Assembly (NCBI RefSeq): GCF_006345805.1
Contig: NC_042998.1
Span: 15,376,001-15,440,000, forward strand
Source: Octopus sinensis
Taxonomy: Eukaryota
Direction of reading: 5' to 3'
DNA length: 64,000 nt
Shown: one piece after another, positions 5,774 to 63,470 of the stretch
How the letters are laid out: each line of letters begins with the position of its first letter
Numbering within the stretch: position 1 is the first letter of the stretch
The notes under the pieces: generated by a model
Told to the model about the DNA's origin: nothing
Seen by the model: only the letters and a program-made list of their open reading frames with translations
Database searches by the model: none
Translations under genes and position numbers: made by a program

Positions 5774-6907
5774 AGTATTGGTTAGTACGGAGTATAATAT
5801 AAGACCCTTAAGGTGTAGTGCAGCGGGGTAGACCTGAAACCACGTAGTTTCTATGCAATGTCCTTTATCACAAAGACATGCCTACCCCTATCTATCATTC
5901 TAAACGCCTGTACTTATTTAAACATCAATACTATTTATTTAGTCAGTTTAAAAGTCTGTGTAATTCTGGTAAGAAATGGCAGAGTGGAAAATTTATATAA
6001 TACTAGTTACAGAAAGAAAGAAAAAAATGTTTAGAAGAGATAAAAATTAAGAATTTCGTAAGTAACAGTTAATATTTTTGTGTAACTTTATTCAAATAGA
6101 AGAACTTATTATTATTTATGGTTAATAGATCCTTGAAATATGCTCTATTTCCACCCTTTTTCAAACTAGTTTTCAATACCTTCTCAGTTGCATACGACTA
6201 GATCTCAATCGAATGTTGTTGAAAGAAATATGGTCCGTTCGAGGAAAGACAGTTTTTGCCCAGTATTTGAGAATCTTTAATATGTTGATCGACCTAGTTT
6301 CAGTTAAACAGAACTTAAATTGTTCTCAATAAAAGTTTCTACTATTCAAGAACTAGTCTTATACTAAACAAATTTCCTTATAAAACAATTTGGAATGTCG
6401 TCATTTTTTCCAATTTTTGTTTTAATATATCTCGTTTCCTGCCTTTCTTAATATCTGTATGAACAGATATCAGAACCATTGTTACTTGTATATTATTTTT
6501 CGTACATAGTTAAGATTTTTTGAGAAATACAATATTTGCGCTCTGTTTCTATTTTTTTTTGGTCCTTTTGTCTGATCTCCTTTGACAGACAATCGGTAAA
6601 TAATGCATTTTTATATCATGGTATATTCGTCTGAATATCTTTCTTTATCTCTCTACACATACATAAAGACATACACACACATATATAAATATTTCATTTA
6701 TATAAACACAATCAGCCACCCACAAATACACACATATACACACATGTACACACACATATAATATTTGCTACTGATGATTATAACAAAGCACACCAACATA
6801 ACTTTCTCCTCGGACTGTTTTACAAGAACATTTGGTGAAAGGGTAACTATAATTGGTCTGAAACGATGCTATTCTAATGTTGCACAGAGGATACAGGAAT
6901 AAGAAGT

Positions 6908-7288
6908 GGAGGCGCAATGGCCCAGTGGTTAGGACAGCGGACTCGCGGTCATAGGATCGCGGTTTCGATTCCCAGACAGGGCGTTGTAAGTGTTTATTGA
7001 GCGAATACACCTAAAGCTCCACGATGCTCCGGCAGGGGATGGTGGTGATCCCTGTTGTACTCTTTCACCACAACTTTCTCTCACTCTTACTTCCTGTTTC
7101 TGTTGTACCTGTATTTCAAAGGGCCGGCCTTGTCACTCTCTGTGTCACGCTGAATATCCCCTAGAACTACGTTAAGGGTACACGTGTCTGTGGAGTGCTC
7201 AGCCACTTACACGTTAATTTCACGAGCAGGCTGTTCCGTTGATCGGATCAACCGGAACCCTCATCGTTGTAACCGACGGAGTGCTTCC
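6908..7288 (+). mobile_element. tRNA-derived SINE, head 1 + tail A, full length
   Basis: GGAGGCGCAATGGCCCAGTGGTTAGG...GGTTTCGATTCCC; reverse complement of 191-572. Flanked by ~125-bp direct repeats. Confidence 0.92.
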
Positions 7289-7944
7289 AAAATAACAAAG
7301 CCTACCAACATAATTTATTCGTCGGACTGTTTCACAAGACATTTGGTGAAAGGGTAACTATGATTGGTCTGAAACGATGCTATTCATAATGTTGCACAGA
7401 GGATACATGAATAAGAGAAGAGAAGGAGAGAGTAAGACAGAGAGAGATTGAAATCCCGTGACTGACCGTTTCTTATTATTTTCACCGAAATAAGGAAATA
7501 CACGTTTGAACAGGGAGAGATTTGAACTCAGACAGATTGATAAAAAATCGTAAACTTTCCTACTGATTCATCGTCCAACTGGCTTAAAAACCGTTCCCCA
7601 ATAGTCATATGTGTATATAATTATACAAATACACAGACTTCCATTTCAAAGACGTGTTATATATAATTTAATATTTCAAATTATGATTTTGGTCTTTTCT
7701 TCTTTCCAATAAATAAATATTAGAATATACCTCGTCCATTATCACTTTCCATTTTACTCTACTTACAATAATATTTCCTTTATTTCTTTTAAAATTTTAC
7801 ATTAAATGCAAGACTAATATACACTGTCTGCATCCAGTACTAAATCATGTTAGGAAAATATATAATCTACAAAAGATCAATATACCAATATTAATTGTAT
7901 ACAGCACGCACACACACACATACACACACGAATGAACATACATG

Positions 7945-9224: not shown

Positions 9225-9676
9225 GATAATATCAGGGTAATAAATATTTAAGAGACTTTTACTACCAGTGGCCTAGCGTATAGAAAAATTAGTCAATAGA
9301 CTATATATTATTCATATAAAATACAGGGTACCTTTAAACATATAAGAGGTGCCCATCATAGGATTCCCTTACGCTAGAAGGAACAGCTAAAGTCAAAACC
9401 ACTAATTAGGAATTAAATTTCGAAGGAAAGGAAACATGAAAATAAATACCATCTATTTCCCGGACCATGGTTTGAGACTTTTTTAGCAAATAAAATATTT
9501 TGCTAGGCGAAGTCTTCGTCAACAGGTTATATTCTTTGCTAATAAAAAGTCTGAAACCATGGTCCAGGATTTATCCCTAATTAGTGTTTTGGAATTTAGC
9601 TGTTCCTTCTAGCGTAAGGGAGTCCTATGATCCTATGATGAACACCTCTTATGTGTTTAAATATACACTGTATTTT
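9221..9676 (-). mobile_element. Non-coding PLE pseudo-LTR/retrozyme-like insert with fold-back inversion
   Basis: Flanked by (TA)n. 9535-9676 is the reverse complement of parts of 9315-9490. Contains a decayed HHR and is homologous to 44141-44456. Confidence 0.8.
9459..9526 (-). ncRNA. Decayed type I hammerhead ribozyme (U3.G8; GAAA mutated to CAAA)
   Basis: CCTG-TTGACGA-AGACTT...AAGTCT-CAAA-CCATGG-TC-CGGG. The inverted half copy at 9547-9568 keeps AAGTCT-GAAA-CCATGG-TC-CAGG. Confidence 0.7.
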
Positions 9677-11903: not shown

Positions 11904-12092
11904 ACAGTAAAAGCAATTAAGATTCAAATCAGTTCTAATGAATTCACTTGAATGCGGTACTTAACTTAGATGCACCAGAAAACTATATGGTATTAACCAT
12001 ACAATAATGTGGGGTGATTATAAACGAGAAAAAAGCAACAAGAATGGATTACTTTTTTTAGTACAATCCATTCTTGTTGCTTTTTTCTCGTA
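11904..12092. mobile_element. Short (TA)n-flanked fold-back insert
   Basis: CGAGAAAAAAGCAACAAGAATGGATT (12025-12050) is inverted as AATCCATTCTTGTTGCTTTTTTCTCG (12065-12090); TA repeats on both sides. Confidence 0.65.
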
Positions 12093-12107
12093 TATATATA
12101 TAGAACT

Positions 12108-15600: not shown

Positions 15601-16898
15601 CTTCAAAGCCATATTCACTACATACCTACTTTTAAACCACTTAGCAACTCATTCTTGCCTGTGAGAAGATCGAAGAAAATAATAATGTTGCTCTAACCAT
15701 CTATAAATACTTAGACTGTACTTATCATGCACGTTACCAAAACTTCCGCCTTTGGTCGCTAGTTTTCTCTACGTTCTTGAGTCCGTAGCTTCCTATCAGG
15801 TCGCAGAATCATAATATGTTTTGACAGAGTTCTGTCTACTCCACCTTCACATAACTTTCGTGTTATCCCTTGTCCCCACATTCTTACATTTTTATGCGTC
15901 AATGACTTAGACACTTTGACATCTACCGATGATCGCTCTTATGGAAATGTCAAAACTAACTCTTCGTCCCTCCATAACTCCCCAAACATGCACCTTCCAC
16001 TTGCAGCTTAAACATCACATCCCAAAACTGAATTTATTTCAGAAATGGGGAGATAACCTCTAACCATCCTTTAGAGAAGCCAGATTAATGAAGTAATTTT
16101 AACACACATACACAGAATAAGTTAAGATCTGCACATAGCAACAACATACCCCCTCCCCACTAAAAAAGGGGCAGCACTCTGCTAGATCCCTTACAGTCGG
16201 TGAACATGCTTGCTCTCACTATCAACTATGGCTCCAGGTCTCCTCCATTGCCGAAAGAACATCATTAACATAGATAATACCACACATAAAGATAATAGCC
16301 CAATAGCTGCCGGCAGTCATCATGACTCAAATTGCGTCTCACAATGGAGTGCTTTCTCGACCAATGAGACGATGTTGCAACCTGACACATAGATATCCTA
16401 AGGAGCATTCGAGTGGTGGCTATTAAATCATCAACAGACTCATGCCAGCACCTAACACCAAATTGCTATCGTTACTAAAAATGCTCTCTCTTCCTCGGAG
16501 CTTACTCTACTCTTTTATTTGTTTCAGTCATTTGACTGCGGCCATGCTGGAGCACCGCCTTTAATCGAGCAACTCGACCCCGGGACTTATTCTTTTGCAA
16601 GACAAGTACTTATTCTATCGGTCTCTTTTGCCGAACCGCTAGGTAACCAGCATCGGTTGTCAAGCAATGCTAGGGGTACAAACACAGACACACAAACACA
16701 CACACGCATATATATATAGTAAAGTAAATAAGGTGGCTAGCAGCAGGCTGTTTCGCCTCATACCGAAGGAATTAGAAATGGCAGTCAAAGACCGTTTTTT
16801 CCGTTTTCTATAAGTGGAGATTCCCAAAACGAAGGCCCTTACGGCTCACATACACAAAACCGGAGTGGCAAATATACGAAAGCAATCACTTACCGTTA

Positions 16899-16966
16899 AT
16901 AGCGAACACCGTGTTTCTGGATCACAAACATAGAAAAAGTAGTTTGAATTCCGTCATCAGCGCTAT
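16899..16966 (-). ncRNA. Type I hammerhead ribozyme, intact core
   Basis: ATAGCG-CTGATGA-C-GGAATTCAAAC...GTTTGTGATCC-A-GAAA-CACGGTG-T-T-CGCTAT. 6-bp stem I, near-palindromic stem III, GUU cleavage triplet. Confidence 0.9.
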
Positions 16967-17578
16967 ATTCGATAGCTTTACCAAATGCCACTAGCCCTCA
17001 CTTCTGACCCAGCGACATCAGATAGTGGGGGGAAGTGCGCAGATGTTAAAACTAAGTAACGACTGGGAACGTAAATTTTCCCTCCAAAATTCTGCCATGC
17101 GCGCCTTCTGGGTAATCGTAATGGAATGAGGAATCCACATGGTAATGCAATAAAAATGGTAAATAATTTTCCTGTGGTTTTTCATGTAACCAACAATTAT
17201 TTACCGGTAAATTTCGGTATGTAAATACGACAAATTAATTGTCAGGACCTTTGTAAGGTTCAGTATATAGTAAAGAAAATAAGGTGGCTAGCAGCAGGCT
17301 GTTTCGCCTCATACCGAAGAAATTAGAAATGGCAGTCAAAGACCGTTTTTTCCGTTTTCTATAAGTGTAGATTCCAAAAACGAAGGCCATTTTATTGCAT
17401 TACCATGTGGATTCCTCATTCCATTACGATTACCCAGAAGGCGCGCATGGCAGAATTTTGGAGGGAAAATTTACGTTCCCAGTCGTTACTTAGTTTTAAC
17501 ATCTGCGCACTTCCCCCCACTATCTGATGTCGCTGGGTCAGAAGTGAGGGCTAGTGGCATTTGGTAAAGCTATCGAAT

Positions 17579-17645
17579 ATAGCGCTGATGACGGAATTCA
17601 AACTACTTTTTCTATGTTTGTGATCCAGAACACGGTGTTCGCTAT
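17579..17645 (+). ncRNA. Second hammerhead copy lacking one A of GAAA
   Basis: Identical to 16899-16966 except CCAGAACACGG instead of CCAGAAACACGG (mutation or homopolymer error). Confidence 0.75.
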
Positions 17646-17953
17646 TAACAGTAAGTGATTGCTTTCGTATATTTGCCACTCCGGTTTTGTGTATGTGAGC
17701 CGTAAGGGCCTTCGTTTTTGGAATCTCCACTTATAGAAAACGGAAAAAACGGTCTTTGACTGCCATTTCTAATTCCTTCGGTATGAGGCGAAACAGGCTG
17801 CTGCTAGCCACCTTATTTTCTTTACTATATACTGAAACTTACAACGGTCCTTACAATTAATTTGTCGTATTTACATACCGTAATTTACCGGTAAATAATT
17901 GTTGGTTACATGAAAAACCACAGGAAAATTATTTACCATTTTTATTGCATTAT

Positions 17954-17986
<33 letters not shown>

Positions 17987-18481
17987 CGACGGGCTTCTAT
18001 CAGTTTCCATCTACCAAATCCACTCACAAGGCTTTGGTCGGCCCGAGGCTATAGTAGAAGACACTTGCCCAAGGTGCCACGCAGTGGGACTGAACCCAGA
18101 ACCATGTGGTTGGTAAACAAGCTACTTAACACACAGCCACTCCTGCGTCTTATTTGTCTAGTAAATTCTCCACTCAGGGTTCCTCATGACATTCGTTTCT
18201 AACATATCTAACTCGAGTAATCTGAGGTTACTAAGCATGCTGCATTGTTTCTTTGCCAATTATAGTCTATGTACGTTCACACCAGCAACTTTCAGTACTG
18301 GTTTTGCATGAAAATTATGCTGAATTCTGTAAAAATGCAATGGTTTCGTTCGTTTTTGGCACCGGTTAAACAGTAAAATACACAACATAAATGCAACAAA
18401 CTTCTCAGAGAATTCAAACTGTAATTCTTCATGCGAAATTATGTAACAAGTGCTTTGTGTGCACAAGTATTATCATTATTA

Positions 18482-26977: not shown

Positions 26978-28252
26978 GGTTAGAGTGTGGGTACGTGAAA
27001 GCACGTGGCTGGATGTATAAAAGACAGAAAAGATTGAAAAACTAAAGAAGGCTTGTATTATATGGTTAAAGGTTATATTTAAATCGTTATGTTAGAAAAA
27101 TGTTATATAATTTTGTGCATAATGTTTTGAGAAATAACCGGTTTCGTATTTTCTTTTCAAATTTCTCAAATTCCTTTACCTATATCGTGTCATGTCTTCG
27201 CAATGTTGTGAAATATGGAGTTCAAGGCAGGGGAAGATAATCAGGGATTTTTCCGGTATAAGGGAAACAATAAAAAATGTTGGGAATGAATAGTCTTGAT
27301 TAATTTAACATGATTTGGTTTAGCAGGAATAGAATGTTACAAGTGGTTAGATTTTGCTTTATACATTTTCAATGAAGCGAGTGTCCTTATCTAAAACTGC
27401 TAGAAATAGTTAAGTTTTGGCTTATATTTTTCAATGAAGAAGGTTTCCTTATTTAGTCTTACTTATGTTGGTCTTACTTATGCTGATAGAATGGAAAGAT
27501 TACAAATTGTGGTAGCAGTGGCTTTGCGCATTTCTCAATATGTTCACTAAAGGGTATCATTCTGTATTCTGGGAATGCAATCTGCTGTGGATGTAGAGTG
27601 CATCTGCGTCTGAGCGATAATCTCGTGGACCCTATGTAGTTTACGTGGCAGCCCGAGCATCTTATAACATAAATCAGGTTTTCTGAAGCACAAGTAAAGT
27701 CAGATTTGATTTTGAATCGTTGTCTCTCTTTGAAAAGGAATTCTGATCCTTCTAGAAGTTTTGGGTATGTTGCGCAATTTGGTCTACCACATTTTTTACT
27801 TTTACATCCGTTATTTTAGAAAATGATTTTTCTTTTGTGAAGATCTTTTTTTAGTTATTTCGGTTGTTTGTAGCTTTTAATGATTTTAAGTATGTGTTAA
27901 ATTTCCTTTAATTTGGGGTCCTTGTGTAGCATTGGTAAATTCTGGGTGATGATGGTGAGGGCTTCTTTATTTCTGGGATTGTATGTGGATATGCACTGCA
28001 GTATTTTCGGGAAGGTGTGTTACTGTTTTGAACTTTTCTTAAGGTTTCTATCAGTTGAACTGGATAGTGTCTGCCAATTAGGGTTATTTTGAGTTCTTGC
28101 AGTCTAAAGTTTCTGGTATTTTGTTCTGACATTTTGTGCAAATCCTTCTTGCAAGGTTGAAGGGGATGTTTGTTTTGGTGTGTCTTGAATTAAATAGTAG
28201 ATATTGCTTGGCGTCTGTGGTCTTGTACAATATGTCCGTTTCTATTTTTAGG
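26978..28252 (-). mobile_element. Penelope-like element, 5'-truncated (RT thumb + GIY-YIG endonuclease + pseudo-LTR)
   Basis: Minus frames give KIETDILYKTTDAKQYLLFNSRH..NIPFNLARRIC and FTCASENLIYVIRCSGCHVNYIG (27631-27700), with frameshifts and stops. The 3' end abuts (TA)n. Confidence 0.9.
27126..27170 (-). ncRNA. Minimal hammerhead, U3:A8 core variant
   Basis: TTTGAGAAAT-TTGAAAA-GAAAATAC-GAAA-CCGG-T-T-ATTTCTCAAA. 10-bp stem I; downstream of the PLE ORF. Confidence 0.75.
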
Positions 28253-28581
28253 TTTATTTTCTTTTTACTTTCAATGAATTCACATTTAAAACTAGAAAGA
28301 TTAGTAAAGATTTAAACAATCTGTGCACTAAACTAAAGTCGGTATTCACAAACAAACCGAACAACAACCGACGCACACCAAATGAAACACACCAGGATGT
28401 CATATTCACACAAGTCAATCTAACAAAAAGAAAAATAAAGAACATTTGGAATACAAACCTCCATAATAGAAAACTCGCTTTCTGGAATATGATAAAAAAT
28501 TCCAACAAAGCAGATATCTACAAGGGATGGATGAACTCAACACCAATTGTTCTCCCACGCAAATTCCACATCAAAATAATA

Positions 28582-28640
<59 letters not shown>

Positions 28641-29480
28641 TTTTTATCAAAAGCAAAAAGTAACCGAAATTATTGGAAAAAATATTAACCGGTGCAAGAC
28701 TATATATCTTAACAACAGAACCAAAAGTAGAAGAATGCAGGCAGCATAACTCTGGCACATGCCCCCACTCTTTGGACGGTACAGAGTTTCATTTCAAACA
28801 AGGTGAAATATTTACGATAAAGTCAAATTTCACTTGTGCTTCCGAAGATCTTATCTATTTTTTAACCTTCTTAGGGGCAGAAACCACTATATATAGGTCA
28901 AACACGAATGTCGCTCAGCCAAAAGAATAACGCTTCACAAAGAACAAACTTGCTTACCACCATACTGATAGATACAGGTCAGTCAGCACATAGATGTGCT
29001 AAGAACAATAAACCAAACTTCCTAATTCCAGAACATCTCAGTGCGGAAAAGACTATATAAAGAGGAAACTCAATAATAAATATCAGCTACAGCTTAACAT
29101 GAACACACGACTTAATACAGATCACTACTAACCTTACTAATACCAATAATCCCACAAATCCTCATATATCCCAAATACCATTCGTATTCTATTAATAATT
29201 TAAACCTAATTGTATCTCTTTCAGAACTGCTTATCTCCCTTGCATGCAATTTTTTCACTCAGGTACTATTAGACCAAACACGGTTTGCAAATCGGTGTTG
29301 ATTCAAAGTCAGTGAACAGCGATGACGAAACCGGTATGACATTCTACATTGACTCATGATAATGATTTTTATATTTCTTAATAACACCTCATGACATTTA
29401 TTTGTATGCATATATTTTTGTTTTTATAAAAAAGATATTACTTTTAGACCGAGTTTGGTTCTTTTTACTTTTTCCGTATA
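28253..29480 (+). mobile_element. Second Penelope-like fragment(s), opposite orientation
   Basis: ORF 28673-28930 ...CRQHNSGTCPHSLDGTEFHFKQGEIFTIKSNFTCASEDLIYF is a paralog of the minus-strand GIY-YIG region. 28253-28580 is possibly PLE N-terminal sequence. HHR at 29308. Confidence 0.8.
29308..29340 (+). ncRNA. Minimal hammerhead, G3:C8 core variant
   Basis: GTCA-GTGAACA-GCGATGAC-GAAA-CCGG-T-A-TGAC, downstream of the PLE ORF. Confidence 0.7.
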
Positions 29481-29682: not shown

Positions 29683-30488
29683 CATCTACGTATATAAACA
29701 AGTATATATACTTACACACACACATACACACACACACATACACACATATATATATATATACATATATATATGTATATATGTATTTTCGTATGAATCTATT
29801 TATATTTTCCATTATATTTAGTATTATTTAAGTTTAGAGATAGCTACCCCAGCTGACGAACCAATTTGAAAAAAAAATTAAGTACGAAGTCTTTAGTCAT
29901 TGCAATCCCCCAGGATAAGTTTGTAAAATGATGGAGATGTTGATATACGTATGGTTGGTATGATATGTGGAATTGATGAGATACGTGTATAGTTTATTAA
30001 GGAGTTTGTAATAAACTAAAAAGAAAAACAAATGGGTGAGAATTCGTTAAAACTGTCTGCAAAGCAAAACAAATCAAAAAGAGAAAACGATTCAGTCTCT
30101 CTGAAGTATAATACTATAGAATTCGATGACTTAGAAACTGCACCGTTACATGTATACTGCTTCTTCAATTGGCCTTCAGCAAAAGCATGCAAATTGTCTA
30201 TTTCCTGTACATAAATACACACACACACACACTCAGCCATATGCAACACACACGCACAGTGCTGAGCTGGCAGAAATGTTAGCGCACCGGGTGAAATGCT
30301 TAGCGGTATTTCGTCTGACGTTACGTTCTGAGTTCAAATTCCACCGAGGTCGACTTGCCTTTCATTCTCTCGGGGTCGATAATTAAAGTACCAGTTTCGC
30401 GATGGTTAATGTAATCGAATTAATCCCAATGTCTGTCCTTCTTTGTCACCTCTATGTTTAGCCCCTTGTGGCTAGTAAAGAAGTATAT

Positions 30489-30658: not shown

Positions 30659-31371
30659 GTATATATGTATTTTCGTATGAATCTATTTATATTTTCCATT
30701 ATATTTAGTATTATTTAAGTTTAGAGATAGCTACCCCAGCTGACGAACCAATTTGAAAAAAAAATTAAGTACGAAGTCTTTAGTCATTGCAATCCCCCAG
30801 GATAAGTTTGTAAAATGATGGAGATGTTGATATACGTATGGTTGGTATGATATGTGGAATTGATGAGATACGTGTATAGTTTATTAAGGAGTTTGTAATA
30901 AACTAAAAAAAAAACAAATGGGTGAGAATTCGTTAAAACTGTCTGCAAAGCAAAACAAATCAAAGAGAAAACGATTCAGTCTCTCTGAAGTATAATACTA
31001 TAGAATTCGATGACTTAGAAACTGCACCGTTACATGTATACTGCTTCTTCAATTGGCCTTCAGCAAAAGCATGCAAATTGTCTATTTCCTGTACATAAAT
31101 ACACACACACACACACACTCAGCCATATGCACACACACACGCACAGTGCTGAGCTGGCAGAAATGTTAGCGCACCGGGTGAAATGCTTAGCGGTATTTCG
31201 TCTGACGTTACGTTCTGAGTTCAAATTCCACCGAGGTCGACTTTGCCTTTCATTCTCTCGGGGTCGATAATTAAAGTACCAGTTTCGCGATGGGTTAATG
31301 TAATCGAATTAATCCCAATGTCTGTCCTTCTTTGTCACCTCTATGTTTAGCCCCTTGTGGCTAGTAAAGAA

Positions 31372-31375
<4 letters not shown>
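29600..31375. repeat. ~890-bp near-identical tandem duplication, each unit ending in a Meta-type SINE (30258-30483, 31145-31373)
   Basis: GTATTATTTAAGTTTAGAGATAGC at 29821 and 30708. Differences are mostly homopolymer/microsatellite length. Units are bounded by (TA)n. Confidence 0.93.
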
Positions 31376-37134: not shown

Positions 37135-37535
37135 TAATAATAAGAGTAAACAATTTCTATAATGGTTTTTAAAAAAGGATCACAATTATTTACTGGTAGT
37201 TTCGGTATGTAAATATAGACGATTAACGGTAGGAACTTCTGTAAAGTTCAGTATATATACTGTATATATGAAAAAGGGACAGGCAACAGGTTGCTTGGCC
37301 GCATACCGAAAAAGTAGAAATAGCAGTCAAGAATGCTTAATTCTATTTTTCACAAGTGGGGCTCCACACACGACAAACCCTGCAATTCACATATGCAAAT
37401 TGCATATGTGAATTGCAGGGTTTGTCGTGTGTGGAGCCCCACTTGTGGAAAATAGAAATAAGCATTCTTGACTGCTATTTCTACTTCTTCGGTATGCGGC
37501 CAAGCAGCTGTTGCCCGTCCCTTTTTCTTATATCT
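37135..37535 (-). mobile_element. Truncated relative of the 16.7-17.9 kb element with a near-perfect ~130-bp fold-back
   Basis: Shares CAATTATTTAC.GGTA..TTTCGGTATGTAAATA...CATACCGAA..TAGAAAT.GCAGTCAA with 17195-17340. Palindrome centred at 37399. Confidence 0.85.
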
Positions 37536-39883: not shown

Positions 39884-40189
<306 letters not shown>

Positions 40190-40469
40190 CAACAATTGTG
40201 GGTAAAATTAATTAATTATTAATCAATTTCACCAAGTATTCAGTATGTAAAGGGACCATTTAAGGCGAATTCAAAATATTACATTTATTAAAGGGCTTAG
40301 TAAAATAAATTACTTTGCCACATACTGAACTCATTAGAAATAGCACCAAAAAAAAATTTTTAGCCAAATTCTAATACTTAAAGAAAATTTCTCTCAGATA
40401 GTGCTTACTCAAAATAGCCCACGAAGGTATGGGGGTAAAAACATTAAAAAATCACAAGTGCAAAGGTTA

Positions 40470-40531
40470 TTTGAGAACGTACATTTCTAGATCAGCCAAA
40501 TACAATTCGACATTTCTTTCGTCAGCTCAAA
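40470..40531 (-). ncRNA. Type I hammerhead ribozyme, array copy 1
   Basis: TTTGAG-CTGACGA-A-AGA..GTCGAAT-TGT-ATTTGGC..TCT-A-GAAA-TGTACG-T-T-CTCAAA (stem III C>T change). Confidence 0.82.
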
Positions 40532-41034
40532 ATTCCTTAATTCGGATTTGTAAACACTGAAAGTAGGAGCATACCCTTTTGGCGACTTTTCACCTCCGAA
40601 GATCCGTTCAGACTAACAGTGCCAACAAATTCAAAATATGCAAGCGAAGAATTTCTGCCCTCCCCTTTCCACCCACGTGGGCTAACCTAGCAAACACCAT
40701 AATTTTATCGGTGAAAACCGAAGCATTAAACAGAGAGAAATGAATTATAATTTCAACAATTGAGGGTAAAATTAATTAATTATTAATCAATTTCACCAAG
40801 TATTCAGTATGTAAAGGGACCATTTAAGGCGAATTCAAAATATTACATTTTATAAAGGGCTTAGTAAAATAAATTACTTTGCCACATACTGAACGCATTA
40901 GGAATAGCAGCCAAAAAATTTCTTTTAGCCAAATTCTAATACTTAAAGAAAATTTCTCTCAGATAGTGCTTACTCAAAATAGCCCTCGAAGGTATGGGGG
41001 TAAAAACATTAAAAAATCACAAGTGCAAAGGTTA

Positions 41035-41095
41035 TTTGAGAACGTACGTTTCTAGATCAGCCAAATACAATTCCACATTTCTTCGTCAGCTCAAA
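41035..41095 (-). ncRNA. Type I hammerhead ribozyme, array copy 2
   Basis: TTTGAG-CTGACGA-AGA...TCT-A-GAAA-CGTACG-T-T-CTCAAA. Confidence 0.88.
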
Positions 41096-41602
41096 ATTCC
41101 TTAATTCGGATTGTAAACACTGAAAGTAGGAGCATACACTTTTGGCGACTTTTCACCTCCGAAGATCCGTTCAGACTAACAGTGCCAACAAATTCAAAAT
41201 ATGCAAGCGAAGAATTTCTGCCCTCCCCTTTCCACCCACGTGGGCTAACCTAGAAAACACCATAATTTTATCGGTGAAAACCGAAGCATTAAACAGAGAG
41301 ATATGATTATAATTTCAACAATTGAGGGTAAAATTAATTAATTATTAATCAATTTCACTAAGTATTCAGTATGTAAAGGGACCATTTAAGGCGAATTCAA
41401 AATATTACATTTTATAAAGGGCTTAGTAAAATAAATTACTTTGCCACATACTGAACTCATTAGAAATAGCAGCCAAAAAAATTTTTTTAGCCAAATTCTA
41501 ATACTTAAAGAAAATTTCTCTCAGATAGTGCTTACTCAAAATAGCCCACGAAGGTATGGGGGTAATGGTAAAAACATTAAAAAATCACAAGTGCAAAGGT
41601 TA

Positions 41603-41664
41603 TTTGAGAACGTACGTTTCTAGATCAGCCAAATACAATTCCACATTTCTTTCGTCAGCTCAAA
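41603..41664 (-). ncRNA. Type I hammerhead ribozyme, array copy 3
   Basis: Same motif, palindromic stem III ACGTACGT, GUU triplet. Confidence 0.88.
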
Positions 41665-42167
41665 ATTCCTTAATTCGGATTTGTAAACACTGAAAGTAGG
41701 AGCATACACTTTTGGCGACTTTTCACCTCCGAAGATCCGTTCAGACTAACAGTGCCAACAAATTCAAAATATGCAAGCGAAGAATTTCTGCCCTCCCCTT
41801 TCCACCCACGTGGGCTAACCTAGAAAACACCATAATTTTATCGGTGAAAACCGAAGCATTAAACAGAGAGATATGAATTATAATTTCAACAATTGAGGGT
41901 AAAATTAATTAATTATTAATCAATTTCACTAAGTATTCAGTATGTAAAGGGACCATTTAAGGCGAATTCAAAATATTACATTTTATAAAGGGCTTAGTAA
42001 AATAAATTACTTTGCCACATACTGAACTCATTAGAAATAGCAGCCAAAAAAATTTTTTTAGCCAAATTCTAATACTTAAAGAAAATTTCTCTCAGATAGT
42101 GCTTACTCAAAATAGCCCACGAAGGTATGGGGGTAAAAACATTAAAAAATCACAAGTGCAAAGGTTA

Positions 42168-42229
42168 TTTGAGAACGTACGTTTCTAGATCAGCCAAATA
42201 CAATTCGACCTTTCTTTCGTCAGCTCAAA
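42168..42229 (-). ncRNA. Type I hammerhead ribozyme, array copy 4
   Basis: Same motif, intact CUGACGA/GAAA core. Confidence 0.88.
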
Positions 42230-42605
42230 ATTCCTTAATTCGGATTTGTAAACACTGAAAGTAGGAGCATACACTTTTGGCGACTTTTCACCTCCGAAGA
42301 TCCGTTCAGACTAACAGTGCCAACAAATTTAAAATATGCAAGCGAAGAATTTCTGCCCTCCCCTTTCCACCCACGTGGGCTAACCTAGCAAACACCATAA
42401 TTTTATCGGTGAAAACCGAAGCATTAAACAGAGAGAAATGAATTATAATTTCAACAATTGAGGGTAAAATTAATTAAGAGTAAGCACTATCTGAGAGAAA
42501 TTTTCTTTAAGTATTAGAATTTGGCTAAAAAAATTTTTTTGGCTGCTATTTCTAATGAGTTCTGTATGTGGCAAAGTAATTTATTTTATTAAGCCCTTTA
42601 TAAAA

Positions 42606-42636
<31 letters not shown>

Positions 42637-44140: not shown

Positions 44141-44144
<4 letters not shown>

Positions 44145-44456
44145 CAAACATATAAGGGATGGCCATAATAGGACATCTGACTCACTAGAAAGAGCAGTTA
44201 AACTCCAAACCACTAATAGTTTTAATTCTGAAAGGGAAAGAGAAATAAAAACATTTACCCCATCCCTTTCAGAATTACAACTATTAGTGGTTTGGTGTTT
44301 AACTGCTCTTTCTAGTGAGTCGAATGTCCTATTGTGACCATCTCTTATGTGTTTGAATGTATATTACATAGTCTGTTGGCTATTTTTTCTTTTTCACTTG
44401 ACCGCTGGTAGCGGAGAATTTTTCTAGAATCTTTTGCTACCCTAAAATTTAATAAT
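44141..44456 (+). mobile_element. (TA)n-flanked fold-back insert homologous to 9221-9676
   Basis: Arms 44143-44237 and 44263-44357 are reverse complements. AAACATATAAG...CTAGAAAGAGCAGTTAAACTCCAAACCACTAAT matches 9336-9410. Confidence 0.8.
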
Positions 44457-47362: not shown

Positions 47363-47367
47363 GTATG

Positions 47368-47439
<72 letters not shown>

Positions 47440-47441
<2 letters not shown>

Positions 47442-50400
47442 TCGATGCTCCTACTGAACATCAGAGGACTGCAAACACTCAGTAACAGGACAAAGATCCC
47501 GTTCCTGAGAGACTTTGTTGCATGCAATCAAGCCTTATGCATAGCACTTACAGAAACGCACCTGAAACCGGACATAGCAGATGCGGAGTTACACATACCA
47601 CAGTATGCTGTACTACGGACCGACAGGAAAGAAAGGAGTCATGGAGGTGTTGCTATGTACATCCGTGAGGACCTCACACCCCAGGTCCTCTTGTCATACT
47701 CAAACTCGGTGTGTGACACACTAATTGTACATATTAGGCAACTTGATGTAGTTGTGTGTGCTACATATCGCCCTCCAGATGCCCCAAGCCATGTGGGCAA
47801 GTTTGAAGACTGCCTTATAAAAATAGAAGAAATTCTAAGCACATTAGAACATATAGGTGTGCTTCTTATGGGAGACTTCAATCTGCCCAATGTCAGATGG
47901 CCCGAGGGCCTTTCTCTCCCAGGAATGACAAGATGTGAACGAGGACAGGCGAGGTCCCTCCTGAACCTCATCAACACCCTGTACATGGAGCAGTTAATAC
48001 TCCAACCAACCAGGGCAGGTAACACACTGGATCTCTGCTTCACAAATGACATGGATCTCATCCATAATGTGAAAGTGACACCGACACTACTCTCGGATCA
48101 CAACATGATAGAGCTGACCATGTACGGGCCAAAAGAGAGCACGGACATGCAGCCTACAAGAAACCCTCAAAATCTTTCCAGCTTGAACTACCATAAGGCA
48201 AACTGGAAACAATTGAGAAAGAGATCCTCAAACAAAACTGGCCTAAATGTCTCTCCTCGCCAGACATCGACGTGAAACTTCAACAATTCATGTCTGTAAT
48301 GCAAGCCATATGCTACAAATGTGTCCCAGAGAGAAAGGCCACTGTACACAAGAACAAAATCCCCAGAGAGAGGAAAATTTTAATGAGACGGCGTACGAAA
48401 TTTTCAAATCGCCTAAACAAACAGATTGAAAGCAGTGAAAAGTCCCGCCTAAAAATAAAACTGTTGGAAATCGGAAAGAGAAAGAGCAGACAAAGAAGCC
48501 TGGGCTATAGAAAACATAAAATCTAACCCCAGAGCTTTCTACAGATATGCCAAAGAAACAGCTACAGTGCACTGTAGAATAGGGCCACTCCTCGAAAAGG
48601 ATGGCACACTTACAGGAAAACCAATGAGGGTAAGTGAAATACTGAATGAGCAATTCAAGAGTGTTTTCACTCCACCCCTTGGGCATCTCCAAATCACCAA
48701 TCCAACTGACTTTTTTACCACTGCAGATATAAAATCAGAGGCGGCGACGATAGATTACATCGATATAAAGGAAGACGATGTAACCAAGGCTATAGATGAA
48801 ATGAAAACAGACTCAGCTACCGGCCCCGATGGATTCCCGGCAATCCTCCTAAAAGCATGTAAGAGAGTCCTAGCAAGACCACTGCAGTTCCTCTTTCAGA
48901 GCTTCCTTGCAGCTGGCAAACTTCCAGGAAAACTGAAGGAAGGTAAAATATGCCCCATTCATAAAGGAGGTAGCAGAGCGGAAGCCAAGAACTATAGACC
49001 TATCTCTCTGACCTCACACATCAGCAAGGTCATGGAACGAATAGTCAGAAGGAAGCTGATCACCTTCCTTGAAGAGAATGACTTGCTGCCCGACACCCAA
49101 CATGGTTTCCGACCAGGGAGAAGCTGTTTAACTCAGCTCCTACAACACTATGACTGGGTGCTGAAACGGCTGCTCAACCACTCAAATGTGGAAGTGATAT
49201 ATCTCGACTTTGCAAAGGCCTTTGATAAAGTCGATCATGGAATGATATGTCACAAACTGCGTGATCTCAACATAGTTGGAAAACTGGGAGAATGGCTTCA
49301 TGACTTTCTGAAGGATAGAAGTCAGGTGGTAGTAGCCAATGGGGCCACCTCCATTAACACACAAATAGTGAGCGGTGTTCCGCAGGGCACTGTTCTGGGA
49401 CCACTACTGTTCATAATGGCCTTCTCAGACATGCCCTCAGCCACGCAGAGAGCCACGATCACAAGTTATGCAGATGATACAAAAGTTTCACAGGCAATAC
49501 AGAACCCTGAGGACACTAAACACCTGCAATGTGAGCTGGACGAAATATACAAGTGGGCTGAAAAGAATAGCATGCAGTTCAATGCTGGAAAGTTTCAAGC
49601 TTTATACTATCAGCATGCAAAACTGAATGCAATACCCAATGAATACACTGGACCCGGAGGGATTGCAATCCCAGAGGCACAATCAGTGCGTGACCTGGGT
49701 ATTCACATGAGTGATGACGCGACCTTTCATGTACATGTTGCTAAACTGACAATGAAATGTAGACGGCTGGCTGGCTGGATTCTTAGAACCTTTAGAACAA
49801 GAGAACAAGAAACCATGATGGTCCTCTGGAAGACACTTGTCCTAAGCCACTTTGACTATTGCTCTCAGCTATGGTCACCATCCAGTGTCAAGTTGATCAC
49901 AGAACCTGAGGCGATCCAACGAAGCTACACGAAGAATATAGCCTCTATGCAGAATGTAAGCTACTGGGAAAAACTCAAGAGATTAAAATTATATTCCCTG
50001 GAGCGTAGGCGGGAAAGATATGCCATAATATACATCTGGAAGATCCTGGAGGGAAGTGTCCTGAACTTTGGCATCGAGAGTTACGCAAATGCCAGAACTG
50101 GGCGCCACTGCGTGGTGCCTAGGACTCCAAACCTGCCATCAAGATGTAGGACAAGATTCTGTGATAGCCTGGGCTTCCGAGGCCCACAGCTCTTCAATAT
50201 CCTCCCGAAGAACCCGAGAGACCTGCATGGGGTGGATACAGATGTCTTTAAAATGAAGCTGGATCTCTTCCTGTCAGGTGTCCCAGATGAACCAACTTCA
50301 CGGCAGGAGGGGCAGATGAGGGCAGCTGCATCGAACTCTCTCATGCACCAAATAGCAGTTGCTAGAAAGCCCCCATGAAGCAACACCAAATGGCGGTGCC

Positions 50401-59290: not shown

Positions 59291-60356
59291 TGCTGGTGCT
59301 GCTGCTGCAGCTGCAACAACTACTACAACCACTACTACTACTACAGCAACAAAGCGAACGTATGTAGATCGTTCACGTCAATAATATCGTTGCAGACATA
59401 ATACGAAGTCATAATACGAAGTAGCCAATTTCATTTAATTTCATTTTTATAGTATCCTATATAAGAATTATTCGCTGTCTACAATTGACTCAATTTACAT
59501 GGACAACTTTTTTTTTAAAGAGTTACAAACTGATGTTACATATAATGTTTTCCCTTTTTAAATTTATCTACTCTTTTAACTCAATATTCAATATCTATGT
59601 TCATTGTGAATGAGAATTAGTTTTATAGCCTTAAAATATCAACTTTAGTTATAGATTATCGTAATGTCTTCTACCCTTCAGCTTCTTTTAATCGCAAAAA
59701 TAGAAAACGAAACAAATAAAAATGACCACAACAAAAAAACAAACAAAAAAAAAAACAAACAAAAAGAAAAGAAAATTGAAAATCAATTATAGAAAATTAA
59801 ACGGTCAAAGTAAGAATGCAATCTAAGAAAAGGCATTTGTAAGATATCGTTGAAGAATCTTAAGGAAGCCATATAGATAACATGATAGTGGATAATACTC
59901 AAAAGTCGAAAACAAATTTTTATTTTCATATACTTACTCTCAATAATAAGAATAGTGTGGAAATAAGAAAGAGGTATTTATTATGTAGAATAACCAATAT
60001 TTGATACTTTTATTTCTATTTATTTAAAATCCGAATGAATGCTAATATCGTTAAAAAGTGTTGAAAATATATAAATTTCAATTCAATATTGAAGTTGTTC
60101 TAATATTTTTAAACTTTTAGATTTATTGATACACAATTACTATTTGATTAGCATCTATTTTAATGCTATGCCACTAATAATGATAATGAAACGAGTTTTT
60201 AATGGAATTATGATAACTGGAAACGAAGCAGAAATATCTACATGACCATTCGAAGTGAAAAACGAAGAAAAGCCCCAGTGTATCCACTGTAGCAACTTCA
60301 AATAACGAGCGAATACATTAGAATTTGTAGCTATTCTATGCATATAAAGATATCAT

Positions 60357-60743
60357 GTGGAAGCACTCCGTCGGTTACGACGACGAGGGTTCCGGTTGAT
60401 CCGAATCAACGGAACAGCCTGCTCGTGAAATTAACGTGTAAGTGGTTGAGCACTCCACAGACACGTGTACCCTTAACGTAGTTCTCGGGGATATTCAGCG
60501 TGACACAGAGAGTGACAAGGCCGGCCCTTTGAAATACAGGTACAACAGAAACAGGAAGTATGAGTGAGAGAAAGTTGTGGTGAAAGTGTACAGCAGGGAT
60601 CACCACCATCCCTGCCGGAGCCTCGTGGAGCTTTTAGGTGTTTTCGCTCAATAAACACTCACAACGCCCGGTCTGGGAATCGAAACCGCGATCCTACGAC
60701 CGCGAGTCCGCTGCCCTAACCACTGGGCCATTGCGCCTCCACC
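60357..60743 (-). mobile_element. tRNA-derived SINE, head 1 + tail A, full length
   Basis: Near-identical to 191-572. 13-bp TSD ATAAAGATATCAT at 60344-60356 and 60744-60756. Confidence 0.93.
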
Positions 60744-62717: not shown

Positions 62718-62969
62718 ATAGAGAGATGTGCGTAGAGTGAGAAAAAGGTGGAGTCAGAGCGTGAGAGACAGAGAGCGTCAGAGAATGTTGACATCGCTGT
62801 GCCAAACTGTATCGGCCTTTGCCTTTCACTTGTATAATATCAATGGCGTGAAAACGCGAGGCTGAAATGCGTGGGCGAACTGTTGCCCTTCCTTAAACAA
62901 CCTCGTTGATCTGTGATGAATAACAACTTCAATGACTTCTATACTCCATATATAAGTATTCCCACACCA

Positions 62970-63310
62970 ACTGATGTCAAATTGCGTCCGATTAATGCAG
63001 GCCAGCACCCAGCACCCAAAGATTTAGTAATTTGCTTGACATAATTTTAAAACCTTTATGCAGATTAGTTCTGAGCTTCATCAGAGTTGAGATGTATTTC
63101 TTAAACCATATCCCAAAACGGATAGATAAAGAGATAATACAAGTTAGCTTTGCCGTAATTCGTCTCAACGCAAATATCTCCCACATATATGGACTAGACG
63201 CGAAAGAATTCTGGATAAACAAAGAACCACAAAGAATTGAAGAGAGATTCTCGAAAGAATTTATAGTCGAAGGGTCACAGACATTACTGGAAAACAACTA
63301 TTTTGATAAT
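62970..63310 (+). pseudogene. Penelope-like RT fragment
   Basis: LRPINAG...SNLLDIILKPLCRLVLSFIR..YFLNHIP...VSFAVIRLNANISH..GLDA..FWI...LLENNYF matches the PLE RT pattern (LRPI / SFDV.SLYTNIPH / LENNYF). Confidence 0.75.
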
Positions 63311-63314
63311 CAAG

Positions 63315-63470
63315 TTGTCAAGTGGTAGTGAGGGACAAACACAAATACAAAGACACACACATACACGACAAACGTCTTTCAGTCTCCGTCCAACAAATCC
63401 ATTCACAAGGCTTCGGTCGGCTACGCAGTGGAACTGAACCCGGAAGCTCCTTACCACACACCTACGCCTG
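63315..63470 (-). mobile_element. Deleted family B SINE head
   Basis: CTTTCAGTCTCCGTCCAACAAATCCATTCACAAGGCTTCGGTCGG...GCAGTGGAACTGAACCCGGAA. Confidence 0.7.

What the first reader, a model, noticed from the sequence alone, without database searches (positions are those of the whole stretch)
16719..17952. 551-nt circularly permuted ribozyme unit present in both orientations
The sequence runs past one full period on both arms (1.2 and 1.03 units), as expected from reverse transcription of a circular or multimeric RNA. It has no ORF and an intact HHR. A truncated diverged relative lies at 37135-37535. A read-through transcript would form >400 bp of dsRNA.
Basis: partly seen in the sequence, partly recalled or inferred. 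Interest (0 to 1): 0.78.

Follow-up and report, generated by a model that had tools for sequence, protein, structure and literature searches.

The report
Hammerhead retrozyme inserted as inverted pair
This is a small protein-free jumping element that carries a self-cutting RNA and landed as a head-to-head pair, the way Penelope-type retrotransposons often do, so it is a local variant of a known kind of element and not proof of a circular RNA.

Summary
The observation mostly holds. A 551-nt, ORF-free unit is present as two head-to-head arms (1.23 and 1.03 units), and the whole 1.24 kb is one insertion in a (TA)n tract. Only arm A has a complete type I hammerhead core; arm B has lost one A of GAAA, and Rfam detects neither.

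In 3 of 3 related insertions one arm ends 61-71 nt and the other 159-192 nt past a shared structured core. That is the PLE two-start-site 'tail' signature, not random opening of a circle.

Running past one unit rules out a cleaved linear monomer as template, but does not favour a circle. Shared variants among the array units point to a mixed multimeric template.

Best reading: a non-autonomous, non-LTR-retrozyme-like element in an octopod genome, mobilised by a PLE. Inverted arms, tails, (TA)n targets and HHR tandem repeats are all published. Locally unusual: an N·A pair in place of G10.1-C11.1 in both families, and a long tail. Circular RNA, cleavage and transcription were not testable.

The parts
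16713..17388 (-). Arm A, 1.23 units of the 551-nt family F1 unit; RNA (HHR) sense is the minus strand; 3' end at start site 1
17387..17952 (+). Arm B, 1.03 units, inverted; 3' end at start site 2
17387..17391 (.). Head-to-head junction joining the two 5' ends: 2-nt exact microhomology (CC), no spacer, one T missing from a T run
16892..16973 (-). Type I hammerhead of arm A: 6-bp helix I, 3x3 internal loop and 4-bp extension; complete core; C·A at the helix II base; near-palindromic helix III; predicted cleavage after 16905
17572..17652 (+). Hammerhead of arm B, core damaged (one A of GAAA missing); GUU at 17637-17639
17760..17884 (+). Conserved 3' core shared by F1, F2 and F3: a short motif plus a long-range helix with a G-C/A-U double change in F2. 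Other copies start at 17335 and 16784 on the minus strand
17832..17952 (+). 121-nt 'tail' between site 1 and site 2, present at only this end of the insertion; contains the terminal hairpin
16504..16712 (.). Left half of the interrupted host repeat, ending in (CA)n(TA)n
17953..18142 (.). (TA)n and right half of the same host repeat; uninterrupted paralogues near 11.2-11.6, 24.1-24.5 and 33.0-33.4 kb serve as empty sites
40187..42477 (-). Family F2: 4.05 tandem units of 564, 562, 571 and 565 nt, each with a type I HHR (C3 at 40525, 41089, 41658, 42223); 3' end at site 2, in (TA)n
42478..42606 (+). Inverted short arm of F2, 3' end at site 1, followed by (TA)n
37135..37533 (.). Family F3: head-to-head pair (37135-37398 minus, ending at site 2; 37400-37533 plus, ending at site 1) with a palindromic junction; HHR part absent
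27403..28263 (-). Decayed C-terminal part of a PLE ORF: post-RT region, CX4CxxC-type linker partly decayed, GIY-YIG. Neptune/Nematis-type. Separate element showing that such PLEs live in this genome; not shown to be the partner

Best explanation
F1 is a non-autonomous HHR-bearing retroelement (non-LTR-retrozyme-like) mobilised in trans by an endonuclease-containing Penelope-like element, probably Neptune-type. Step 1 (inferred): a tandem source array like F2 is transcribed into multimeric RNA, and uncleaved RNA is the template. Step 2 (target shown by empty sites; enzyme inferred): the PLE GIY-YIG endonuclease cuts both strands of a (TA)n tract. Step 3 (end positions shown; priming inferred): each free 3' end primes reverse transcription at one of two fixed internal sites beside a conserved structured core, giving one arm with a tail and one without. 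Step 4 (inferred from predicted folds): each cDNA stalls at a strong stem, either the base of the HHR rod or the terminal hairpin. Step 5 (junction shown; mechanism inferred): the two cDNA ends join by microhomology, giving a head-to-head insertion. The HHR probably cleaves as a dimer and may release roughly 551-nt linear and circular RNA from arrays, as known retrozymes do; that is by analogy only. Confidence about 0.85 in the class assignment and about 0.6 in the two-end priming step.
For: One insertion in (TA)n: both flanks match halves of one host repeat that are adjacent in 3 paralogues. Two fixed 3' ends in 3 of 3 insertions: +71/+63/+61 and +192/+159/+191 from the core; 18 of 200000 simulations with uniform phase did as well (post hoc). 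HHR fold conserved between F1 and F2: 83 of 84 cells paired, 7 of 14 pairs changed on both sides, although the units share only a 49-nt, 75.5% match by BLAST. Cleavage site to site 1 is 192 nt in F1 and 194 nt in F2. Units are structured on the HHR strand: z -3.8 and -5.8 against 40 shuffles each. 4 of 6 5' ends lie 54-73 nt upstream of the core; for F1-A and F2-inverted this is the base of the predicted HHR rod. PLE remnants with C-terminal GIY-YIG are in the window. Literature: inverted 5'-truncated copy, tail at one end and (TA)n bias (PMC8557442); PLE protein cuts and extends both strands, starts at two internal sites and uses unprocessed RNA (PMC11167929); retrozymes derive from pLTRs (bioRxiv 2026.07.22.740005).
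Against: No autonomous partner was identified. The PLE remnant's 3' region has no hit to the F1/F2/F3 3' profile, only one 32-nt AT-rich match to F1 (1 of 300 shuffles as high, best of 6 comparisons). Published tails are 30-40 nt; these are about 96-130 nt. The anole PLE starts without homology to the target, whereas F1 site 1 shares 6 nt with it. A single-switch fold-back copy of arm A explains 4 of 5 sites at which the two arm A copies differ, so arm B need not be a separately primed cDNA. The helix II base lacks the highly conserved G10.1-C11.1 pair, Rfam finds no HHR, and only 1 of 9 predicted Xenopus retrozymes cleaved in vitro. The covariation count rests on just two families.
Confidence: 0.72

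Rival explanations
1. Circular-template model: both arms were copied from a 551-nt monomeric circRNA, the RT running once round the circle and stalling soon after passing its own start.
For: Both arms read through the cleavage site. Arm B overruns by only 15 nt, and the F2 array ends 29 nt past a whole number of units. Units fold stably as circles. Mussel, coral and axolotl retrozymes form abundant circRNA (PMC7229834), and circular templates were proposed for PLEs in 2014.
Against: F2 units share 4 variants in 2:2 patterns; 0.11-0.45 are expected by parallel mutation from one template (P 6e-6 to 1e-3), though later gene conversion could also produce them. The two passes of arm A differ at 4 of 125 sites against 2 of 315 between the arms (Fisher p 0.057; pooled p 0.064): suggestive only. 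The short overruns also coincide with the terminal hairpin. Unprocessed linear RNA is the dominant substrate for the anole PLE.
Confidence: 0.25
2. Fold-back (self-priming) model: arm B arose when the first cDNA, or an antisense RNA, folded back at the junction microhomology and copied itself, with a switch inside the 128-nt direct repeat.
For: The central 315 nt are nearly identical between arms (2 differences). One switch between unit positions 56 and 12 fits 4 of 5 sites at which the two arm A copies differ. F3 has a palindromic junction with a 1-nt spacer. Self-priming was proposed for head-to-head pLTRs in Adineta (PMC3846280).
Against: It needs two switches for F1, and needs synthesis to stop by chance at site 2, which is also an end in F2 and F3. 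F1 and F2 junctions are not palindromes.
Confidence: 0.2
3. Ordinary pLTR remnants: the arms are 5'-truncated ends of a coding PLE (tandem and inverted pLTRs) and there is no independent non-autonomous family.
For: Most PLE copies are 5'-truncated, and HHR pairs 100-700 bp apart on opposite strands were ascribed to truncated PLEs (PMC4209133). The rest of the genome could not be searched.
Against: Arm A runs from one unit straight into the next, and F2 does so four times, with no ORF between. tblastn with three PLE proteins finds nothing at F1, F2 or F3.
Confidence: 0.12
4. Assembly artefact (fold-back read or collapsed repeat).
For: Long near-perfect inverted repeats are a known artefact type (recalled). 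No reads were available.
Against: The arms differ by 1-3%, start at different biologically recurrent phases, and the flanks reconstitute a host repeat.
Confidence: 0.03

Closest known systems
Metazoan non-LTR retrozymes (Cervera and de la Pena 2020, PMC7229834; Li et al. 2026, bioRxiv 10.64898/2026.07.22.740005)
   Same: ORF-free units with one type I HHR each; GC below 45% (F1 41%, F2 34%); weak palindromic helix III; tandem copies (F2); co-occurrence with PLEs; stable folds; molluscan examples known.
   Different: Unit 551-571 nt, against about 170-400 nt in the 2020 paper (within the 51-972 bp of the 2026 preprint). N·A instead of G10.1-C11.1. This locus has one complete HHR, so it is not an 'active' tandem by the 2026 definition. 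Head-to-head insertion, two fixed start sites and a conserved 3' core were not described for retrozymes in the parts I read. Circles not tested.
EN+ Penelope-like elements, Neptune/Nematis type (Craig et al. 2021, PMC8557442; Arkhipova et al. 2013, PMC3846280)
   Same: Partial tandems, inverted 5'-truncated copy at the 5' end, tail at one end only, (TA)n target with no discernible duplication, microhomology junction, type I HHR.
   Different: No RT/GIY-YIG ORF. Tail about 96-130 nt rather than 30-40. The HHR lies outside the 124-nt direct overlap of arm A. No partner element identified.
Anole Poseidon PAc in vitro mechanism (Frangieh et al. 2024, PMC11167929)
   Same: Two internal RT start sites defining the tail, AT-rich targets, both strands extended, HHR cleavage not needed.
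   Different: PAc is autonomous and of another clade. Its start sites are in an AC-rich stem-loop within the ORF and show no target homology.
Non-autonomous Chlamys elements such as MRC1 (PMC8557442)
   Same: ORF-free PLE derivatives with pLTRs and multicopy head-to-tail insertions.
   Different: Green algae; most Chlamys lack canonical HHRs and target (CA)n or (C)n.
L1 twin-priming 5' inversions (recalled; not read here)
   Same: Head-to-head arms with 3' ends pointing outwards and junction microhomology.
   Different: L1 arms are non-overlapping parts of one poly(A) RNA; here the arms overlap fully and start at fixed internal sites.

Membership tests
Type I hammerhead ribozyme | Core boxes CUGANGA, GAAA and NUH in type I order | tested here: met
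   Arm A and F2 units 2-4 pass the strict descriptor; F2 unit 1 passes with a U-G in helix III. Arm B fails.
Type I hammerhead ribozyme | Helices I and III supported by covariation | tested here: met
   83 of 84 cells paired; 7 of 14 pairs changed on both sides. Only two independent families.
Type I hammerhead ribozyme | G10.1-C11.1 pair closing helix II (highly conserved, PMC4209133) | tested here: not met
   C·A in both F1 arms and A·A in 4 of 4 F2 units; a 3-bp stem follows in 5 of 6 copies.
Type I hammerhead ribozyme | Match to an Rfam hammerhead model | tested here: not met
   None among 4 matches at E<=10 in 16700-17960; none among the 150 listed of 206 window-wide.
Type I hammerhead ribozyme | Self-cleavage | not testable with these tools
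   Needs in vitro transcription.
Non-LTR retrozyme | No protein-coding capacity | tested here: met
   Longest ATG frame 55 aa (F1) and 43 aa (F2); no tblastn hit with PLE proteins.
Non-LTR retrozyme | [quoted passage not shown] 2026) | tested here: not met
   Not met at the finding: one complete HHR, the second inverted and damaged. Met by the related F2 array.
Non-LTR retrozyme | Unit size and low GC | tested here: inconclusive
   GC 41% fits; 551 nt is above 170-400 nt but within 51-972 bp.
Non-LTR retrozyme | Expressed as unit-length linear and circular RNA | not testable with these tools
   No RNA data.
PLE-mobilised insertion | Partial tandem with adjacent inverted 5'-truncated copy | tested here: met
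   F1 and F2 show tandem plus inverted arm; F3 shows the inverted pair only.
PLE-mobilised insertion | Tail at only one end of the insertion | tested here: met
   3 of 3 insertions; longer than the published 30-40 nt.
PLE-mobilised insertion | Microsatellite (TA)n target | tested here: met
   TA runs at both ends of all three; empty-site paralogues for F1 only.
PLE-mobilised insertion | 3' end shared with an autonomous PLE | tested here: inconclusive
   Only the window was searchable: no profile hit on the PLE remnants, one weak 32-nt match.
Autonomous PLE | RT plus GIY-YIG ORF between pLTRs | tested here: not met

The most novel reading that the evidence does not exclude
Octopods carry a widespread family of large (550-570 nt) retrozymes with an undescribed but active hammerhead variant (N·A at the helix II base, conserved internal loops) and a conserved structured 3' domain that is the docking site for a PLE protein. 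They accumulate as circRNA, and a dimeric PLE RT primes both target strands on them. These insertions would then be genomic proof that animal retrozymes are PLE-mobilised, explain PLE inverted repeats and tails by one mechanism, and seed ready-made long dsRNA loci.
Probability: 0.2. Interest if true: 0.7.

Novelty: new variant of a known kind. Interest (0 to 1): 0.42.

Why it matters
How animal retrozymes are mobilised is open: a 2020 review says their repeats show no conserved motif pointing to a partner (PMC7761336), and the 2026 preprint argues for PLEs from co-occurrence and pLTR similarity. These three insertions show the PLE integration signature (inverted arm, one-sided tail, (TA)n) directly on ORF-free HHR units, and map two start sites and a conserved 3' structure that can be tested in the existing in vitro PLE assay. 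The N·A helix II base is a testable ribozyme variant. The class, the inverted layout and the circular-template idea are all already in print, which limits the surprise.

Tried and rejected
Rfam scans found no hammerhead; listed hits were below-threshold miRNA-type matches to microsatellites and hairpins. A first core pattern with a gap of at most 30 nt missed the F1 HHR (helix II region 36 nt) and gave 6 matches against 3.0 expected, so it was uninformative. The repeat finder was swamped by microsatellites. An exact scan of GTDB prokaryotic genomes for the 3' core motif gave 0 loci; this says nothing about animals. Pfam was run on the 150 longest of 298 filtered stop-to-stop frames; besides the LINE and the GIY-YIG remnant only weak low-complexity hits appeared, and no host exon was identified. 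A trimeric-circle origin for F2 was rejected because unit 4 is closer to unit 3 (5 substitutions) than to unit 1 (10). Helix II and the long-range core helix were left out of the covariation count because MAFFT misaligned them; they were read by hand. A link between F1 and the PLE remnant's 3' region stayed weak. The CTGACGA sites at 29853 and 30740 did not pass the HHR descriptor. Names for the PLE protein hits could not be obtained.

Full report
Observation. Self-comparison confirms a 551-nt period (16713-16840 vs 17264-17391, 123/128) and two inverted matches: 438/443 and 241/249. Arm A is 16713-17388 (1.227 units) and arm B is 17387-17952 (1.027 units). The hammerhead strand is minus in arm A and plus in arm B, so the 5' ends meet in the middle and the 3' ends point outwards. 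The junction has a 2-nt exact microhomology and no spacer. The longest ATG frame in the doubled unit is 55 aa. None of the 5 scanned frames overlapping the element hit Pfam; 150 of 298 filtered frames in the window were scanned. A read-through RNA could pair over about 440 bp, but nothing here shows transcription.

One insertion. The left flank (16504-16690) and right flank (17975-18142) match two halves of one host repeat. In paralogues near 11.2-11.6, 24.1-24.5 and 33.0-33.4 kb these halves are separated only by a microsatellite. The whole 1.24 kb therefore entered a (TA)n tract as one piece. A target-site duplication cannot be read in a TA run.

Host. The best named relatives of the window's LINE ORF are Argonauta hians proteins (59% and 62% identity; 2 NCBI-named rows among the 120 listed), so the host is probably an octopod. 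The species was not determined. The main text of a 2026 Octopus vulgaris repeat annotation lists Penelope-like families and has 0 occurrences of 'ribozyme' or 'hammerhead' (PMC13282606, passages only; supplements not read).

The ribozyme. A strict type I descriptor gives 4 hits in the window, against 2 in 40 first-order resamples of 64 kb. One is arm A (C3 at 16960, GUU at 16907-16905). Its first unit passes only if a U-G pair is allowed in helix III. F1 and F2 share only a 49-nt, 75.5% BLAST match, yet their hammerheads keep the fold: 83 of 84 cells paired and 7 of 14 pairs changed on both sides; slid controls gave 35-50%. This is one contrast between two families, not many events. Helix III is palindromic or nearly so, which in published metazoan HHRs means cleavage as dimers (PMC4209133, parts 1-2 of 4 read).

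Against an intact canonical HHR. Arm B lacks one A of GAAA. The base of helix II is C·A in F1 and A·A in F2 rather than the highly conserved G10.1-C11.1. Rfam finds no hammerhead. Only 1 of 9 predicted Xenopus retrozymes cleaved in vitro. The two central differences between the arms both fall within about 12 nt of the cleavage site (about 0.6% by chance, post hoc). This may mean that a dead HHR favoured survival of an uncleaved template, but it is unexplained.

The 'permutation' is two fixed start sites. F1, F2 and F3 (37135-37533) share a 3' core: local scores reached by 0 of 300 shuffles in 3 of 3 pairings. The core includes a long-range helix with a G-C/A-U double change in F2. Measured from the core, the six arms end at +71, +63, +61 (site 1) and +192, +159, +191 (site 2), one of each per insertion. 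Under uniform phase, 18 of 200000 simulations were as tight (post hoc, ignoring AT bias). Cleavage site to site 1 is 192 nt in F1 and 194 nt in F2. This matches the PLE tail, present at one end of an insertion (PMC8557442, passages) and explained by two internal RT start sites, with both target strands cut and extended (PMC11167929, parts 1-2 of 4). Four 5' ends lie 54-73 nt upstream of the core; in F1 and F2 this is the base of the predicted HHR rod. The other two stop 15 and 29 nt before site 2, at the terminal hairpin. I read these as structural stalls; an RNA 5' end at the first position is an alternative.

Circle or multimer. A cleaved linear monomer allows only 192 or 313 nt of cDNA, so the template was a circle, an uncleaved multimer, or several molecules joined by template jumps. 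The F2 units share 4 variants in 2:2 patterns, where 0.11-0.45 are expected from one template; later gene conversion is not excluded. In F1 the two passes of arm A differ at 4 of 125 sites while the arms differ at 2 of 315 in the centre (p 0.057), a weak lean the same way. In favour of a circle, two overruns are very short (15 and 29 nt) and known retrozymes do form circles (PMC7229834: abstract, passages, sections 14 and 17). I put a monomeric circle as direct template at about 0.25, and circRNA production by these families at about 0.5, the latter by analogy only.

The likely engine. The window holds PLE remnants at 27403-28263 (minus), 28649-28995 (plus) and 62910-63322 (plus) by tblastn with unnamed homologues; P0002 carries RVT_1 and a weak GIY-YIG match. 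The homologues have a CX4CxxC linker before a C-terminal endonuclease, the mark of Neptune/Nematis, and that linker was proposed to drive microsatellite targeting. A degenerate minimal hammerhead lies at 27160-27136. None of these touches F1-F3, the nearest being about 9.4 kb from the finding, and none shares their 3' profile. The partner is therefore inferred, not found.

What is known. Non-LTR retrozymes are described from molluscs and many other animals; the 2026 preprint (parts 1-3 of 5 read; supplements closed) derives them from PLE pLTRs and reports units of 51-972 bp. HHR pairs 100-700 bp apart on opposite strands, and circular templates for more-than-unit cDNA, were reported in 2014. 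Head-to-head pLTRs are typical of PLEs (PMC3846280, passages). I did not find octopod retrozymes, inverted retrozyme insertions, two-end priming for PLEs or an N·A helix II base in searches. Most of those results were seen only as listings, and the library lacks most subscription papers. L1 twin priming is recalled, not read.

Verdict. A real feature, correctly seen in outline. It works like a PLE-mobilised non-LTR retrozyme. It fails the strict tandem and G10.1-C11.1 criteria at this locus, so I file it as a new variant of a known kind. The three insertions do give a clear, testable map of start sites, stall points and a conserved 3' structure.

Noticed in passing
40187-42606: Four-unit tandem HHR array with inverted arm in (TA)n; a better retrozyme candidate than the finding itself, since consecutive units have complete HHRs.
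   Followed up: yes
26980-29450: Two diverged PLE C-terminal remnants head-to-head (27403-28263 minus, 28649-28995 plus), with a degenerate minimal HHR at 27160-27136.
   Followed up: partly
62910-63322: Isolated PLE RT N-terminal fragment (42% identity to P0002).
   Followed up: no
47364-50378: LINE with apurinic endonuclease and RT, split over more than one frame; best named relatives from Argonauta hians.
   Followed up: partly
44143-44357 and 9333-9660: Two short fold-back elements that look related by eye; MITE-like or another head-to-head family. The 44-kb one has a weak match to the F2 core (7 of 300 shuffles as high).
   Followed up: partly
29784-30483 and 30671-31372: Recent 887-nt-period direct duplication (99%) including microsatellites; its CTGACGA sites do not pass the HHR descriptor.
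   Followed up: partly
189-572, 6906-7289, 60355-60742: Dispersed 385-nt repeat, 95-97% identical, with older partial copies; unidentified.
   Followed up: no
17629-17651: The only two differences between the arms in the central 315 nt both lie within about 12 nt of the predicted cleavage site.
   Followed up: partly
12019-12096: Short AT-rich hairpin of about 78 nt beside a TA run.
   Followed up: no
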